IMG/VR virus record: IMGVR_UViG_2711768004_000012
Strand: one strand, 5' to 3'
Length of the DNA stretch: 48,520 nucleotides
From: a virus
Lineage: Duplodnaviria; Heunggongvirae; Uroviricota; Caudoviricetes
The position numbers and the translations under genes are program-made. The notes beneath the pieces are model-generated. The model did not search any database and had not been told where the DNA came from. It worked only from the letters and a program-made list of their open reading frames with translations. This document shows, piece after piece, positions 43,135 through 48,520 of this stretch (the first letter of the stretch is position 1; each line of letters begins with the position of its first letter).

Positions 43135-45735
43135 ATGAGCACAAAACCACTCTTCCTGTTACGGAAAGCGAAAAAATCATCCGGTGAACCTGACGTCGTC
43201 CTGTGGGCAAGCAACGATTTTGAATCGACCTGTGCCACTCTGGACTACCTGATCGTTAAGTCAGGTAAAAAACTGAGCAGCTATTTTAAAGCTGTTGCCA
43301 CGAATTTTCCTGTCGTTAATGACCTGCCCGCTGAAGGTGAGATCGATTTTACCTGGAGTGAACGCTATCAACTCAGCAAAGACTCCATGACATGGGAACT
43401 AAAACCGGGAGCAGCACCAGACAACGCTCACTATCAAGGCAATACCAACGTCAACGGCGAAGACATGCCTGAGATTGAGGAGAATATGCTACTCCCAATT
43501 TCTGGCCAGGAACTGCCCATTCGTTGGCTTGCTCAACACGGCAGCGAAAAACCGGTAACGCACGTTTCACGCGACGGACTCCAGGCATTACACATTGCTC
43601 GGGCTGAAGAACTACCGGCTGTTACTGCCCTGGCTGTTTCCCACAAAACCAGCCTGCTCGACCCGCTGGAAATTCGCGAACTCCACAAACTGGTTCGTGA
43701 CACTGACAAAGTTTTCCCTAATCCTGGTAATTCAAACCTGGGACTGATAACTGCTTTTTTCGAAGCATACCTGAACGCTGACTACACCGATCGAGGACTG
43801 CTGACAAAAGAGTGGATGAAGGGTAATCGTGTTTCACACATCACTCGCACGGCTTCCGGTGCTAATGCTGGCGGCGGAAACCTCACCGATCGCGGCGAAG
43901 GTTTCGTACACGATCTGACGTCACTGGCGCGGGACGTAGCCACTGGCGTACTGGCCCGTTCAATGGATCTGGACATCTATAACCTTCATCCGGCACACGC
44001 TAAACGCATTGAGGAAATTATCGCTGAAAATAAACCGCCCTTTTCTGTTTTCCGCGACAAATTCATCACCATGCCTGGCGGGCTGGATTATTCCCGCGCC
44101 ATCGTGGTTGCGTCCGTAAAAGAAGCACCAATTGGGATCGAGGTCATCCCCGCGCACGTCACTGAATATCTGAACAAAGTACTGACTGAAACCGATCATG
44201 CCAACCCTGATCCGGAAATCGTGGATATTGCCTGCGGTCGCTCCTCTGCCCCGATGCCGCAGCGAGTAACAGAAGAAGGAAAACAGGATGATGAAGAAAA
44301 ACCGCAACCATCTGGAACAACGGCAGTTGAACAGGGAGAGGCTGAAACAATGGAACCGGACGCAACTGAACATCATCAGGACACGCAGCCGCTGGATGCT
44401 CAGTCACAGGTAAATTCTGTTGATGCGAAATATCAGGAACTGCGGGCAGAACTCCATGAAGCCCGGAAAAACATTCCATCAAAAAATCCTGTCGATGCCG
44501 ATAAATTGCTTGCTGCATCACGTGGTGAATTTGTTGACGGAATTAGCGACCCGAACGATCCGAAATGGGTAAAGGGGATCCAGACTCGCGATTGTGTGTA
44601 CCAGAACCAGCCAGAAACGGAAAAAACCAGCCCGGATATGAATCAACCTGAGCCAGTAGTGCAACAGGAACCGGAAATAGCCTGCAATGCCTGCGGCCAG
44701 ACTGGCGGGGATAACTGCCCTGACTGTGGTGCGGTGATGGGCGACGCAACATACCAGGAAACATTCGATGAAGAGAGTCAGGTTGAAGCTAAGGAAAATG
44801 ATCCGGAGGAAATGGAAGGCGCTGAACATCCGCACAATGAGAATGCTGGCAGCGATCCGCATCGCGATTGCAGTGATGAAACTGGCGAAGTCGCAGATCC
44901 CGTAATCGTAGAAGACATAGAGCCAGGTATTTATTACGGAATTTCGAATGAGAATTACCACGCGGGTCCCGGTGTCAGTAAGTCTCAGCTCGATGACATT
45001 GCTGATACTCCGGCACTGTATTTGTGGCGTAAAAATGCCCCCGTGGACACCACAAAGACAAAAACGCTCGATTTAGGAACCGCTTTCCACTGCCGGGTAC
45101 TTGAGCCGGAAGAATTCAGTAACCGCTTTATCGTAGCACCTGAATTTAACCGCCGGACAAACTCCGGAAAAGAAGAAGAGAAAGCGTTTCTGAGGGAATG
45201 CGCAAGCACAGGAAAAACGGTTATCACTGCCGAAGAAGGCCGGAAAATTGAACTCATGTATCAGAGCGTTATGGCTTTGCCGCTGGGGCAATGGCTTGTT
45301 GAAAGCGCCGGACACGCTGAATCATCAATTTACTGGGAAGATCCTGAAACAGCAATTTTGTGTCGGTGCCGTCCGGACAAAATTATCCCTGAATTTCACT
45401 GGATCATGGACGTGAAAACTACGGCGGATATTCAACGATTCAAAACCGCTTATTACGACTACCGCTATCACGTTCAGGATGCATTCTACAGTGACGGTTA
45501 TGAAGCACAGTTTGGAGTGCAGCCAACTTTCGTTTTTCTGGTTGCCAGCACAACTATTGAATGCGGACGTTATCCGGTTGAAATTTTCATGATGGGCGAA
45601 GAAGCAAAACTGGCAGGTCAGCTGGAATATCACCGCAATCTGCGAACCCTGGCTGACTGCCTCAATACCGATGAATGGCCAGCTATTAAGACGTTATCAC
45701 TGCCCCGCTGGGCTAAGGAATATGCAAATGACTAA
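43135..45735 (+). CDS. recE: Exodeoxyribonuclease VIII (RecE), full length 866 aa
   Basis: [42 protein letters not shown]... and C-terminal nuclease domain ...[11 protein letters not shown]...; length and sequence match RecE as I recall it. Confidence 0.9.
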
Positions 45736-46537
45736 GCAACCACCAATCGCAAAAGCCGATCTGCAAAAAACTCAGGGAAACCGTGCACCAGCAGCAATTA
45801 AAAATAACGACGTGATTAGTTTTATTAACCAGCCATCAATGAAAGAGCAACTGGCAGCAGCTCTTCCACGCCATATGACGGCTGAACGTATGATCCGTAT
45901 CGCCACCACAGAAATTCGTAAAGTTCCGGCGTTAGGAAACTGTGACACTATGAGTTTTGTCAGTGCAATCGTACAGTGTTCACAGCTCGGACTTGAGCCC
46001 GGTAGCGCCCTCGGTCATGCATATTTACTGCCTTTTGGTAATAAAAACGAAAAGAGCGGTAAAAAAAACGTTCAGCTAATCATTGGCTATCGCGGCATGA
46101 TTGATCTGGCTCGCCGTTCAGGTCAAATCGCCAGCCTGTCAGCCCGTGTTGTCCGTGAAGGTGACGAGTTTAATTTCGAATTTGGCCTTGATGAAAAGTT
46201 AATACACCGCCCAGGAGAAAACGAAGATGCCCCTGTTACCCACGTCTATGCTGTCGCAAGACTGAAAGACGGAGGTACTCAGTTTGAAGTTATGACGCGC
46301 AAACAGATTGAGCTGGTGCGCAGCCAGAGTAAAGCTGGTAATAACGGGCCGTGGGTAACTCACTGGGAAGAAATGGCAAAGAAAACGGCTATTCGTCGCC
46401 TGTTCAAATATCTGCCCGTATCAATTGAGATCCAGCGTGCAGTATCAATGGATGAAAAGGAACCACTGACAATCGATCCTGCAGATTCCTCTGTATTAAC
46501 CGGGGAATACAGTGTAATCGATAATTCAGAGGAATAA
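45728..46537 (+). CDS. recT: Recombinase / single-strand annealing protein RecT (269 aa)
   Basis: [59 protein letters not shown]...; overlaps the recE stop (ATGACTAA). Confidence 0.9.
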
Positions 46538-46592
46538 TTCAGCCTGGCGGTGTAATGCACCGCCAACTTGAAATATTTTTATGAGAAAAATT

Positions 46593-46742
46593 ATGAGATA
46601 TGACAATGTTAAACCATGTCCATTTTGTGGTTGTCCATCAGTAACGGTGAAAGCCATTTCAGGATATTACCGAGCGAAGTGTAACGGATGCGAATCCCGA
46701 ACCGGTTATGGTGGAAGTGAAAAAGAAGCACTCGAACGATGA
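46593..46742 (+). CDS. ralR: Restriction alleviation protein RalR/Lar-like (49 codons to an in-frame TGA; see findings)
   Basis: MRYDNVKPCPFCGCPSVTVKAISGYYRAKCNGCESRTGYGGSEKEALER-TGA; Cys4 zinc-ribbon; an in-frame ATG also lies 12 nt upstream (46581). Confidence 0.6.
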   Translation: MRYDNVKPCPFCGCPSVTVKAISGYYRAKCNGCESRTGYGGSEKEALER

Positions 46743-46779
46743 AATAAACGAACCACTGGAAATAATAATGGAGGTGTTC

Positions 46780-46968
46780 ATGTATAAAATTACCGCCACT
46801 ATTGAAAAGGAAGGTGGCACTCCTACTAACTGGACAAGATATTCAAAATCTAAACTAACGAAATCAGAATGCGAAAAAATGCTCTCAGGTAAAAAAGAAG
46901 CAGGCGTTTCCAGAGAGCAGAAAGTAAAACTGATAAATTTTAATTGCGAGAAACTTCAGTCCTCGTGA
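46780..46968 (+). CDS. ydaC: YdaC-like small protein (start may be at 46768, MEVFMYK)
   Basis: MYKITATIEKEGGTPTNWTRYSKSKLTKSECEKMLSGKKEAGVSREQKVKLINFNCEKLQSS; between ralR and xis as in Rac. Confidence 0.55.
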   Translation: MYKITATIEKEGGTPTNWTRYSKSKLTKSECEKMLSGKKEAGVSREQKVKLINFNCEKLQSS

Positions 46969-47067
46969 ATTGCATTGTATTCAAATTAAAACTTCATAGC
47001 TGATTATTAATAATCAACATCGGGCGTCAATTTAAGTCTAACATTGGCGCCTGCCAGAGGTGATGCG

Positions 47068-47283
47068 ATGGCACAAGTAATCTTTAATGAAGAGTGGATG
47101 GTTGAATACGGCCTGATGCTTCGCACTGGTCTGGGGGCCAGACAAATTGAAGCATACCGCCAGAACTGTTGGGTGGAAGGCTTCCACTTCAAACGAGTAT
47201 CTCCTTTAGGGAAGCCAGACAGTAAGCGAGGGATTATCTGGTATAACTATCCAAAGATAAATCAGTTTATCAAAGACTCATGA
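47068..47283 (+). CDS. xisR: Excisionase (Xis; YdaQ-like)
   Basis: [43 protein letters not shown]...; immediately upstream of int with 1-nt spacing. Confidence 0.7.
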
Positions 47284-47284
47284 T

Positions 47285-48520
47285 ATGTCTAAATTACCAA
47301 CAGGTGTCGAGATTCGAGGTAAATACATTCGCATCTGGTTCATGTTTCGAGGAAAACGATGTCGGGAAACATTGAAAGGCTGGGAGGTTACTAACAGTAA
47401 CATTAAAAAAGCCGGGAATTTAAGAGCGTTGATAGTTCATGAAATCAATTCCGGTGAGTTTGAGTATTTAAGACGTTTTCCCCAGTCCAGCACTGGGGCA
47501 AAAATGGTGACAACGAGGGTCATAAAAACGTTCGGGGAGCTTTGTGATATCTGGACAAAAATTAAAGAAACAGAGTTAACAACAAACACAATGAAGAAAA
47601 CGAAATCACAATTAAAAACACTCAGGATAATAATTTGTGAGAGTACTCCGATATCGCATATTCGTTATAGCGATATCTTAAACTACCGGAATGAACTGCT
47701 GCATGGAGAAACGCTTTACCTGGATAATCCAAGATCCAACAAAAAAGGAAGAACCGTGCGCACAGTTGATAACTATATCGCCCTGCTCTGTTCGTTGTTA
47801 CGTTTTGCGTATCAGTCGGGATTTATATCAACCAAACCATTTGAAGGAGTAAAGAAATTACAGAGAAACAGAATAAAGCCTGACCCGTTATCTAAAACAG
47901 AATTCAATGCATTAATGGAAAGTGAAAAAGGACAGAGCCAGAACTTGTGGAAATTTGCCGTATACTCCGGGCTTCGTCACGGGGAACTGGCTGCTCTGGC
48001 GTGGGAGGATGTGGATTTCGAGAAGGGAGTTGTGAATGTCAGAAGAAACCTGACGATACTGGATATGTTCGGTCCCCCAAAAACAAATGCGGGGATCCGG
48101 ACGGTAACACTACTGCAGCCTGCTCTTGAAGCACTGAAGGAGCAATACAAACTGACCGGGCATCATCGCAAAAGCGAAATCACTTTTTATCATCGGGAGT
48201 ACGGCAGAACCGAAAAGCAAAAACTGCATTTTGTTTTCATGCCCAGAGTGTGTAACGGAAAACAGAAACCTTATTACTCGGTAAGCAGTTTGGGTGCGAG
48301 ATGGAATGCAGCAGTAAAACGTGCTGGTATTCGCCGCCGTAATCCGTACCATACGCGGCATACTTTTGCCTGCTGGCTGTTGACGGCAGGAGCGAACCCG
48401 GCGTTTATAGCCAGCCAGATGGGGCATGAAACTGCGCAGATGGTGTATGAAATTTACGGTATGTGGATTGATGACATGAACGACGAACAGGTAGCCATGT
48501 TGAATGCGCGGTTATCGTAG
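47285..48520 (+). CDS. intR: Tyrosine integrase (IntR-like), 411 aa; stop at the last three bases of the window
   Basis: N-terminus MSKLPTGVEIRGKYIRIWFMFRGKRCRETLKG; C-terminal catalytic region with ...RHTFACWLLTAGANPAFIASQMGHETAQMVYEIYGMW... (R...HxxR...Y tyrosine recombinase signature). Confidence 0.9.
   Translation: MSKLPTGVEIRGKYIRIWFMFRGKRCRETLKGWEVTNSNIKKAGNLRALIVHEINSGEFEYLRRFPQSSTGAKMVTTRVIKTFGELCDIWTKIKETELTTNTMKKTKSQLKTLRIIICESTPISHIRYSDILNYRNELLHGETLYLDNPRSNKKGRTVRTVDNYIALLCSLLRFAYQSGFISTKPFEGVKKLQRNRIKPDPLSKTEFNALMESEKGQSQNLWKFAVYSGLRHGELAALAWEDVDFEKGVVNVRRNLTILDMFGPPKTNAGIRTVTLLQPALEALKEQYKLTGHHRKSEITFYHREYGRTEKQKLHFVFMPRVCNGKQKPYYSVSSLGARWNAAVKRAGIRRRNPYHTRHTFACWLLTAGANPAFIASQMGHETAQMVYEIYGMWIDDMNDEQVAMLNARLS

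What the first reader, a model, noticed from the sequence alone, without database searches (positions are those of the whole stretch)
46581..46787. ralR/lar-like ORF ends at an in-frame TGA, with the frame continuing for 14 more codons
The Cys4 zinc-ribbon ORF terminates at TGA (46740-46742) after 49 codons, but the same frame continues as AAT AAA CGA ACC ACT GGA AAT AAT AAT GGA GGT GTT CAT GTA TAA. If the TGA were TGG the product would be 64 aa and would overlap the ydaC start. This could be a nonsense allele, a read-through site, or a sequencing error. A second in-frame ATG 12 nt upstream also leaves the true start ambiguous.
Basis: seen in the sequence. Interest (0 to 1): 0.45.

Follow-up and report, generated by a model that had tools for sequence, protein, structure and literature searches.

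The report
Natural premature stop in ralR toxin
The TGA is a real, widespread natural nonsense variant (Trp50 to stop) of the Rac-prophage toxin gene ralR/lar, which most likely disables the toxin while its antitoxin RNA stays intact; it is an ordinary allele already present in public databases.

Summary
The ralR/lar ORF (ATG 46593, or ATG 46581) stops at TGA 46740-46742, and the frame then runs 14 more sense codons to TAA 46785-46787, overlapping the ydaC/rcbA start. E. coli K-12 has TGG (Trp50) at this codon and makes a 64-aa RalR.

It is not a sequencing error. The exact CGA-TGA haplotype is in 310 of 5,426 complete E. coli genomes (O157:H7, O55:H7, O26, O103, O111 and others), in three phage records, and on at least 1,000 contigs. 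RefSeq names it as a 49-aa RalR (WP_001443846.1).

It is a derived premature stop, not the family's normal end. Trp50 and Asn51 are present in 57/57 full-length Lar-family proteins and Arg53 in 56/57, and none ends before this WNxR motif. TGA occurs only on one haplotype.

Published mutagenesis shows that residues 49, 51 and 52 are needed for toxicity and DNase activity, so the 49-aa product is most likely inactive. The RalA antitoxin sRNA and its 16-nt target are intact.

No recoding signal follows the UGA. Basal read-through by Trp-tRNA would recreate the exact wild-type protein at low level, but nothing indicates this is selected.

Verdict: known gene, known allele, low interest.

The parts
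46593..46742 (+). Truncated ralR/lar ORF (49 aa plus TGA), with the start as annotated in RefSeq and K-12
   Evidence: translation; Pfam Lar_restr_allev, 39 bits against a cutoff of 28.6, covering model positions 2-52 of 58; RefSeq WP_001443846.1
46581..46583 (+). Alternative in-frame ATG 12 nt upstream (would give 53 aa). No Shine-Dalgarno sequence precedes it
   Evidence: used as the start in phage record ON470616
46737..46739 (+). Arg49 codon CGA (K-12 has the synonymous AGA). It is completely linked to the TGA
   Evidence: haplotype counts
46740..46742 (+). Premature stop TGA, replacing TGG (Trp50) of full-length RalR
   Evidence: K-12 alignment; 310 genomes with TGA against about 1,636 with TGG; Trp in 57/57 full-length family members
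46743..46787 (+). Orphaned 3' end of ralR: 14 sense codons (NKRTTGNNNGGVHV) plus TAA, identical to K-12
   Evidence: unchanged in four other TGA-bearing loci
46715..46730 (+). 16-nt RalA target repeat inside ralR (AAGTGAAAAAGAAGCA; codons Ser-Glu-Lys-Glu-Ala), retained upstream of the stop
   Evidence: 14/16 match to the second repeat, 11 contiguous; Guo et al. 2014, PMC4041452
46786..46964 (-). RalA antitoxin sRNA gene, full length, antisense to ydaC/rcbA
   Evidence: Rfam RF02694, 225 bits against a gathering score of 170, model 1-179/179; identical to K-12 across this span
46887..46902 (-). The 16-nt repeat within RalA that pairs with ralR mRNA (+ strand reads AGGTAAAAAAGAAGCA)
   Evidence: It lies 62 nt from the RalA 5' end at 46964, matching Guo et al.
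46780..46968 (+). ydaC/rcbA (DUF1187), 62 aa, with its own Shine-Dalgarno GGAGG at 46770-46774. It is no longer overlapped by a translated ralR
   Evidence: PF06688, 132 bits, full model; (WP_001302840.1)
45728..46537 (+). recT, immediately upstream (Rac recE-recT-ralR operon context)

Best explanation
This is a naturally occurring, derived nonsense allele (TGG to TGA, Trp50 to stop) of ralR/lar. That gene encodes the small Cys4 zinc-ribbon protein of Rac-type prophages, which acts as a DNase toxin and was first described as a restriction-alleviation factor.

The window carries a full-length Rac-type prophage integrated next to ttcA in related genomes. Translation from ATG 46593 ends at UGA 46740-46742 and yields a 49-aa protein. 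That protein keeps the zinc ribbon but loses half of the C-terminal helix, the family-defining W-N-x-R motif and the tail.

Because published single substitutions at residues 49, 51 and 52 already reduce toxicity or abolish DNase activity, the 49-aa product is most likely a non-toxic, inactive RalR (inferred, not tested). The antitoxin sRNA RalA and both 16-nt pairing repeats are intact, so the locus is a type I toxin-antitoxin pair with a disabled toxin.

The allele arose on a single haplotype (always CGA-TGA). It now sits in many E. coli lineages on an otherwise invariant recT-ralR-ydaC block with mosaic flanks, which implies spread by descent plus recombination or phage transfer (inferred).

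A small fraction of ribosomes will read UGA with Trp-tRNA and so regenerate the exact wild-type 64-aa protein. This is the generic leakiness of UGA, not a programmed signal.
For: **Position and homology**
- K-12 ralR is 64 aa and has TGG where the window has TGA. Within ralR the only other difference is the synonymous CGA/AGA in the codon before.

**A real allele**
- Haplotype counts in 5,426 complete genomes: CGA-TGA 310, CGA-TGG 127, AGA-TGG 1,509, AGA-TGA 0.
- The exact 49-aa protein is on at least 1,000 contigs and named by RefSeq and UniRef.
- Three phage records are 100% identical over the 431-nt query.
- It is present in O157:H7, O55:H7, O26, O103 and O111 at the same ttcA locus.

**A derived truncation**
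- Salmonella and Citrobacter orthologues keep RWN(K/R)R.
- Among 57 full-length Lar-family proteins, W50 is 57/57, N51 57/57 and R53 56/57, and none ends before the motif.
- The Pfam score falls from 53.5 to 39 bits and the last six model positions are lost.

**Likely loss of function**
- The AlphaFold model places residues 43-54 in the single helix, and the stop cuts it.
- Guo et al. 2014 report that changes at residues 14, 37, 39, 49, 51 and 52 reduce toxicity, and that the purified residue-52 mutant does not cleave DNA.

**Antitoxin intact**
- Rfam RalA scores 225 bits over the full model, and the repeats are conserved.

**No recoding signal**
- The 71 nt around and after the UGA fold no better than shuffles (z = +0.62).
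Against: - No experiment on the 49-aa protein exists. It keeps all four Cys residues and still passes the Pfam threshold, so residual or altered activity cannot be excluded.
- RefSeq does not flag it as a pseudogene.
- The allele's persistence in about 16% of ralR-bearing complete genomes, including apparently complete prophages and phage records, could mean it is tolerated or even useful rather than simply broken.
- The one-step progenitor (K-12-like flank + CGA + TGG) was not found in any of 1,740 genomes, so the order of the two linked changes is unknown.
- The orphan tail shows no decay. This is uninformative, because the whole block from 46400 to 46990 is invariant among the TGA loci examined.
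Confidence: 0.85

Rival explanations
1. Leaky hypomorph. UGA is read at low frequency by Trp-tRNA, the natural near-cognate suppressor. Because the lost codon was Trp, read-through restores the exact wild-type 64-aa RalR. On this reading the allele is a dosage-attenuated toxin or Lar that selection keeps functional, not a null.
For: - UGA read-through through competition between Trp-tRNA and RF2 was measured at about 2% (37 C) and 4% (25 C) in a K-12 reporter (PMC10570021).
- The 14 downstream codons and the TAA are intact in all five TGA loci examined.
- The allele is common and sits in full-length prophages.
Against: - There is no stimulatory structure after the stop.
- The intact tail carries no signal, since the whole block is invariant.
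- UGA is found in one haplotype only and in no orthologue.
- The reporter values come from K-12, whose RF2 is unusually weak (own knowledge). The carriers here are non-K-12 strains, where read-through should be lower.
Confidence: 0.1
2. Separation of function. The 49-aa zinc-ribbon core is stable and keeps a non-toxic activity, for example alleviating EcoKI restriction or binding a partner. The truncation would then remove only the harmful DNase activity.
For: - All four Cys residues and both beta-hairpins are retained.
- The product still scores above the Pfam threshold.
- The allele persists in inducible-looking prophages and phage records.
Against: - W-N-x-R is the most conserved part of the family outside the Cys ligands, so it probably serves the family's core function.
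- Half of the only helix is lost.
- Guo et al. report that RalR did not inhibit restriction-modification in their hands.
Confidence: 0.08
3. Sequencing or assembly error in this window.
For: None beyond the single-base difference from K-12.
Against: An identical haplotype is found in 310 independent complete genomes, three phage records and at least 1,000 contigs.
Confidence: 0.005
4. Programmed recoding: selenocysteine insertion or signal-dependent read-through at UGA.
For: An in-frame UGA with an open downstream frame.
Against: - No hairpin follows the UGA. The minimum-free-energy structure of the 71 nt is -6.2 kcal/mol against a shuffle mean of -7.9.
- The position is Trp, never Cys or Sec, across the family.
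- The only Rfam match above its family's gathering score is RalA.
Confidence: 0.005
5. The G-to-A change was selected for a regulatory effect on the downstream gene, not for its effect on RalR. It improves a -35-like hexamer (ATGGAA to ATGAAA) of a promoter-like site at 46739-46766, and it uncouples ydaC/rcbA translation from ralR.
For: - A promoter-like match of 9/12 at 46739-46766 includes the SNP.
- In K-12 the ralR stop overlaps the ydaC start, whereas here termination is 37 nt upstream.
Against: - The match is weak, and the scan finds 6 such sites against 2.3 expected in 1 kb.
- A transcript from it would start inside or after the ydaC Shine-Dalgarno sequence.
- ydaC has its own strong GGAGG with a 5-nt spacer.
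Confidence: 0.03

Closest known systems
RalR (Lar) of the E. coli K-12 Rac prophage (b1348, NP_415864.1, 64 aa), paired with the RalA sRNA as a type I toxin-antitoxin system
   Same: - Same gene at the same position (recE-recT-ralR-ydaC-xisR-intR), next to ttcA in related genomes.
- 148 of the 150 nt of the short ORF are identical.
- Same RalA sRNA and 16-nt repeats.
   Different: - Trp50 codon TGG is TGA here, giving 49 aa instead of 64.
- Synonymous CGA instead of AGA at codon 49.
- One T fewer in the T-run before the first ATG.
- ydaC/rcbA is 62 aa here against 69 aa in K-12.
- The prophage here is full length, not K-12's 23-kb remnant.
RefSeq WP_001443846.1, 'type I toxin-antitoxin system endodeoxyribonuclease toxin RalR' (49 aa, MULTISPECIES)
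   Same: Identical protein. It is annotated in O26-type, O157:H7 and O55:H7 genomes at the same locus.
   Different: None in sequence. The database name implies an intact toxin, whereas the evidence here indicates a truncated and probably inactive one.
Lar_restr_allev family (Pfam PF14354)
   Same: CPFCG...C..C zinc ribbon followed by a helix. The protein scores above the gathering threshold.
   Different: It lacks the family's near-invariant C-terminal W-N-x-R, which is present in 56-57 of 57 full-length members.
Chromosomal type I toxin genes that have decayed, such as the inactive hok homologues of K-12 mentioned by Guo et al.
   Same: A toxin gene disabled by mutation while the locus, including the antisense RNA, persists.
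   Different: Here the lesion is a single nonsense codon that is widespread across lineages. Because it is UGA at a Trp codon, it is in principle leaky back to the wild-type protein.

Membership tests
Lar / RalR family (PF14354) | Match to the family profile above Pfam's gathering score | tested here: met
   the 49-aa product scores 39.0 bits against a cutoff of 28.6 but covers only model positions 2-52 of 58. The TGG-restored 64-aa form scores 53.5 bits and covers 2-58.
Lar / RalR family (PF14354) | Cys4 zinc ribbon (CPFCG ... C-x-x-C) | tested here: met
   C9, P10, F11, C12, C30 and C33 are invariant in 58 sequences and all present in the window's product.
Lar / RalR family (PF14354) | C-terminal helix carrying the W-N-x-R motif | tested here: not met
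   W 57/57, N 57/57 and R 56/57 in full-length members. The window's ORF stops at the W codon. The motif is still encoded in frame after the stop.
Lar / RalR family (PF14354) | Rac-type synteny (recE-recT-ralR-ydaC-xisR-intR; next to ttcA in related genomes) | tested here: met
   window ORFs; annotated genomes.
Lar / RalR family (PF14354) | DNase activity or toxicity; alleviation of EcoKI restriction | not testable with these tools
   Published for the 64-aa K-12 protein only (PMC4041452). Residues 51 and 52, needed there, are absent from the 49-aa product.
RalR/RalA type I toxin-antitoxin system | RalA sRNA gene on the opposite strand downstream of ralR | tested here: met
   RF02694 at 46786-46964 (- strand), 225.1 bits against a gathering score of 170, full model.
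RalR/RalA type I toxin-antitoxin system | 16-nt complementarity between RalA and the ralR coding region | tested here: met
   46715-46730 against 46887-46902, 14/16 identical with 11 contiguous, as described by Guo et al..
RalR/RalA type I toxin-antitoxin system | Intact, active toxin ORF | tested here: not met
   a stop at codon 50 of 64; residues beyond the stop are required for toxicity.
RalR/RalA type I toxin-antitoxin system | Hfq-dependent repression of RalR translation by RalA | not testable with these tools
   Known for K-12 only.
Programmed UGA recoding (selenocysteine or stimulated read-through) | Stable RNA element just 3' of the UGA | tested here: not met
   no pairing within about 35 nt after the UGA; z-score +0.62; 146 of 200 shuffles fold at least as well.
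Programmed UGA recoding (selenocysteine or stimulated read-through) | UGA conserved at that position among homologues | tested here: not met
   all other alleles and 57/57 full-length family members encode Trp.

The most novel reading that the evidence does not exclude
The UGA-at-Trp50 allele is not a dead toxin but a 'dosage valve'. Because UGA is misread specifically as Trp, a growth-condition-dependent 0.1-4% of ribosomes would make the exact wild-type RalR. Toxin or Lar output would then depend on tRNA-Trp/RF2 balance and vary from cell to cell. Selection for this attenuated state would explain why one nonsense haplotype has spread through EHEC and other lineages on apparently complete Rac-type prophages.
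Probability: 0.08. Interest if true: 0.45.

Novelty: already known. Interest (0 to 1): 0.15.

Why it matters
The value is mainly in annotation and interpretation. About one in six ralR-bearing complete E. coli genomes, including O157:H7, O55:H7, O26, O103 and O111 strains, carries a ralR that databases name as an intact DNase toxin. That version lacks the conserved W-N-x-R motif and residues shown experimentally to be required for toxicity. Studies that count RalR/RalA as an active toxin-antitoxin system, or as a restriction-alleviation function, in these strains should treat it as probably non-functional. It is also a clean natural example of a toxin gene disabled while its antitoxin RNA is retained. 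It does not reveal a new mechanism.

Tried and rejected
- **Sequencing error:** rejected by allele counts.
- **Selenocysteine or structured read-through signal:** rejected by folding and by the absence of any relevant Rfam hit other than RalA.
- **TGA as the family's normal stop:** rejected by the family alignment.
- **One-step progenitor haplotype** (K-12-like flank + CGA + TGG): none among 1,740 genomes. The sampled CGA-TGG genomes belong to a more divergent ralR lineage with a different recT.
- **Solved structures:** the sequence search and the Foldseek search against PDB gave only generic zinc ribbons (aIF2-beta, Elf1, RNA polymerase subunits) with no significant hit, so the structure says nothing about the nuclease mechanism.
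- **Decay of the orphan tail in TGA lineages:** uninformative, because the whole block from 46400 to 46990 is invariant among the five loci compared.
- **Literature on truncated ralR alleles:** nothing relevant found. King & Murray 1995 (the original Lar paper) is not in the library and appears only as a reference.
- **First protein search (word-indexed):** reached only close relatives. The exhaustive representative search was needed for the family view.

Full report
**1. What is in the sequence**

The window's last 5.4 kb is the integrase-proximal end of a Rac-type prophage:

| Feature | Coordinates |
|---|---|
| recE | 43135-45735 |
| recT | 45728-46537 |
| small Cys4 ORF (ralR) | 46593-46742 |
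| ydaC/rcbA (DUF1187) | 46780-46968 |
| xisR | about 47068-47283 |
| intR | 47285-48520 |

The rest of the window carries long minus-strand ORFs whose sizes and order fit a complete lambdoid phage (judged by ORF layout only).

ATGs lie at 46581 and 46593. There are 49 codons from the second ATG, then TGA at 46740-46742. Next come AAT AAA CGA ACC ACT GGA AAT AAT AAT GGA GGT GTT CAT GTA and TAA at 46785-46787, overlapping the ydaC ATG at 46780. Fourteen open codons after a stop are expected by chance about half the time, so the observation becomes significant only through homology.

**2. Identity**

The ORF matches Pfam Lar_restr_allev (PF14354), and the next ORF matches DUF1187 over its full length. 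RefSeq annotates the identical DNA as ralR, the 'type I toxin-antitoxin system endodeoxyribonuclease toxin RalR'.

In K-12 MG1655, ralR (b1348) is 64 aa. A base-by-base alignment shows the window differs from K-12 in ralR at only two positions, 5 nt apart. Position 46737 is C instead of A (CGA against AGA, both Arg49). Position 46742 is A instead of G (TGA against TGG, Trp50 to stop). The 45 nt after the stop are identical to the K-12 3' end.

**3. Not an error: a common allele**

Queries of 36 nt centred on the two variable sites can only seed on exact haplotype matches. Counts in 5,426 complete E. coli genomes:

| Haplotype | Genomes |
|---|---|
| CGA-TGA | 310 |
| CGA-TGG | 127 |
| AGA-TGG | 1,509 |
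| AGA-TGA | 0 |

- The exact 49-aa protein is on at least 1,000 contigs (the counter's cap). It has RefSeq 'MULTISPECIES' and UniRef names, and the 53-aa reading is annotated in phage vB_EcoS-673R7.
- Three phage records are 100% identical over the 431-nt query spanning ralR and ydaC.
- Carriers include O157:H7 (ATCC 43890, 86-24, ATCC 43894), O55:H7 RM12579, O111:H8, O26 and O103, plus assorted clinical and environmental strains.
- In three genomes examined (E2865, O157:H7 ATCC 43890, O55:H7 RM12579) the locus lies next to ttcA and has the same RalR, RecT, DUF1187 and XisR protein accessions.

**4. Derived, and probably of single origin**

- TGA occurs only with CGA.
- Orthologues in Salmonella and Citrobacter keep RWN(K/R)R.
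- An exhaustive search found 1,690 relatives. In an alignment of 57 full-length family members, W50 and N51 are 57/57 and R53 is 56/57. Position 52 is K or R in 45/57. No protein ends before this motif, and the shortest ends one residue after R53. TGG is therefore ancestral.
- The hypothetical one-step progenitor (K-12-like flanks with CGA-TGG) is absent, with 0 of 1,740 genomes at 99% identity or more to an 82-nt probe. The three CGA-TGG genomes sampled belong to a more divergent ralR lineage next to a different recT.
- Four other TGA-bearing loci are identical to the window from 46400 to 46990. They differ from it in recE, xisR and intR in block-like fashion, and E2865 shares K-12's variants in xisR. 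This indicates one haplotype block recombined into different flanks.

**5. Consequence for the protein**

- An AlphaFold model of the 64-aa protein (mean pLDDT 78) shows two beta-strands (17-22, 25-30), one helix (43-54) and a disordered tail (55-64). The stop removes the second half of the only helix, along with W-N-K-R.
- Guo et al. 2014 (PMC4041452) screened error-prone PCR mutants. Changes at residues 14, 37, 39, 49, 51 and 52 reduced toxicity, and a purified residue-52 mutant did not cleave DNA.
- Since the 49-aa product lacks residues 50-64 altogether, it is most likely non-toxic and DNase-inactive. This step is inference; nobody has tested the truncated protein.
- No solved structure or fold neighbour beyond generic zinc ribbons exists to refine this.

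**6. The rest of the system is intact**

- Rfam finds RalA full length on the minus strand at 46786-46964 (225 bits against a gathering score of 170).
- The two 16-nt repeats through which RalA pairs with ralR mRNA are at 46715-46730 and 46887-46902. They match at 14/16 positions with 11 contiguous, and the second lies 62 nt from the RalA 5' end, exactly as published.
- The target site lies 10 nt upstream of the premature stop, so RalA could still act on the mRNA.
- ydaC/rcbA has its own GGAGG (46770-46774) with a 5-nt spacer. It does not need the translational overlap with ralR that exists in K-12.

**7. Read-through**

- No structure follows the UGA (z = +0.62). No homologue has UGA at this position.
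- Generic UGA leakiness is real. A K-12 reporter gave about 2% at 37 C and 4% at 25 C, through competition between Trp-tRNA and RF2 (PMC10570021).
- Because the lost codon is Trp, each read-through event would recreate the exact wild-type protein. This makes the allele formally 'leaky', but nothing indicates selection for that.
- From my own knowledge, K-12's RF2 is unusually weak, so read-through in the non-K-12 carriers should be lower.

**8. Start codon**

Both ATGs are in frame. No Shine-Dalgarno sequence precedes 46581, and a weak GAG lies 9-11 nt before 46593. RefSeq and K-12 use 46593. Orthologues from other genera start MRY.... This remains unresolved but does not affect the conclusion.

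**9. Verdict**

Of the three interpretations, 'nonsense allele' is right, 'sequencing error' is refuted and 'read-through site' is unsupported as a programmed feature. Both the gene and the allele are already in public databases, although the name there implies an intact toxin. Interest is low.

Noticed in passing
window 46966-46968: ydaC/rcbA ends at TGA here (62 aa, matching the full 61-position DUF1187 model). K-12 has AGA at this codon and reads on to 69 aa. The three divergent-lineage genomes also have TGA, so the K-12 reference RcbA appears to be a stop-loss extension.
   Followed up: partly
proteins P0012 and P0015: These are RalR-YdaC fusion proteins found in E. coli assemblies. Their junctions fall at the 16-nt RalA/ralR repeat (P0012) or at a nearby GAAAA(A/G)GAAG repeat (P0015). 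This suggests deletions by recombination between the short direct repeats, removing the ralR 3' end and part of RalA.
   Followed up: no
window 46546-46564: There is a 7-bp GC-rich hairpin (GGCGGTG-TAATG-CACCGCC) just after the recT stop and before ralR. The stem is conserved in the divergent O145-type lineage while the loop differs. The terminator scan did not call it, because no T-run follows directly.
   Followed up: no
window 46576-46580: The T-run before the first ATG is T5 here and T6 in K-12, a 1-nt indel. Its effect on ralR expression is unknown.
   Followed up: no
window 1-48520: The window looks like a complete Rac-type lambdoid prophage of about 48.5 kb (large minus-strand ORFs of tail, tape-measure, capsid and terminase size), and it ends exactly at the intR stop codon. 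K-12's Rac is a 23-kb remnant.
   Followed up: partly
window 46739-46766 (+ strand): A promoter-like site (ATGAAA-16 nt-AATAAT, 9/12) has a -35-like hexamer that contains the TGG-to-TGA change, which improves that hexamer's match from 3/6 to 4/6. It is probably a chance match.
   Followed up: no
window 47003-47030 (- strand): This is the best promoter-like site in the region (TTGACG-16 nt-AATAAT, 10/12). It lies about 30 nt upstream of the mapped RalA 5' end at 46964, so it could be a RalA promoter with a different start site or could belong to another transcript.
   Followed up: no
L004-L006 (O145 RM9872, ML35, O157:H7 7.1_Anguil): A second ralR lineage (MRYEKVKP..., about 92% identical at the protein level, TGG intact) sits next to a different, longer RecT-family recombinase (1,053-nt CDS) and a longer recE. 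The xisR protein and the ydaC 3' half are the same as in the window. This shows mosaicism of Rac-type prophage ends.
   Followed up: partly
representative search, (e.g. P0050, P0055, P0071, P0156): Many distant relatives carry two to five tandem Lar domains in one polypeptide (100-430 aa), an architecture not seen in the Rac protein.
   Followed up: no
PMC4041452: The inactive control mutant is called K52Q in the text and figure legends and K52G in the plasmid table, for the same A154G change. With codon 52 = AAA, that change would give GAA, which is Glu. The residue number is consistent but the substituted amino acid is not.
   Followed up: no
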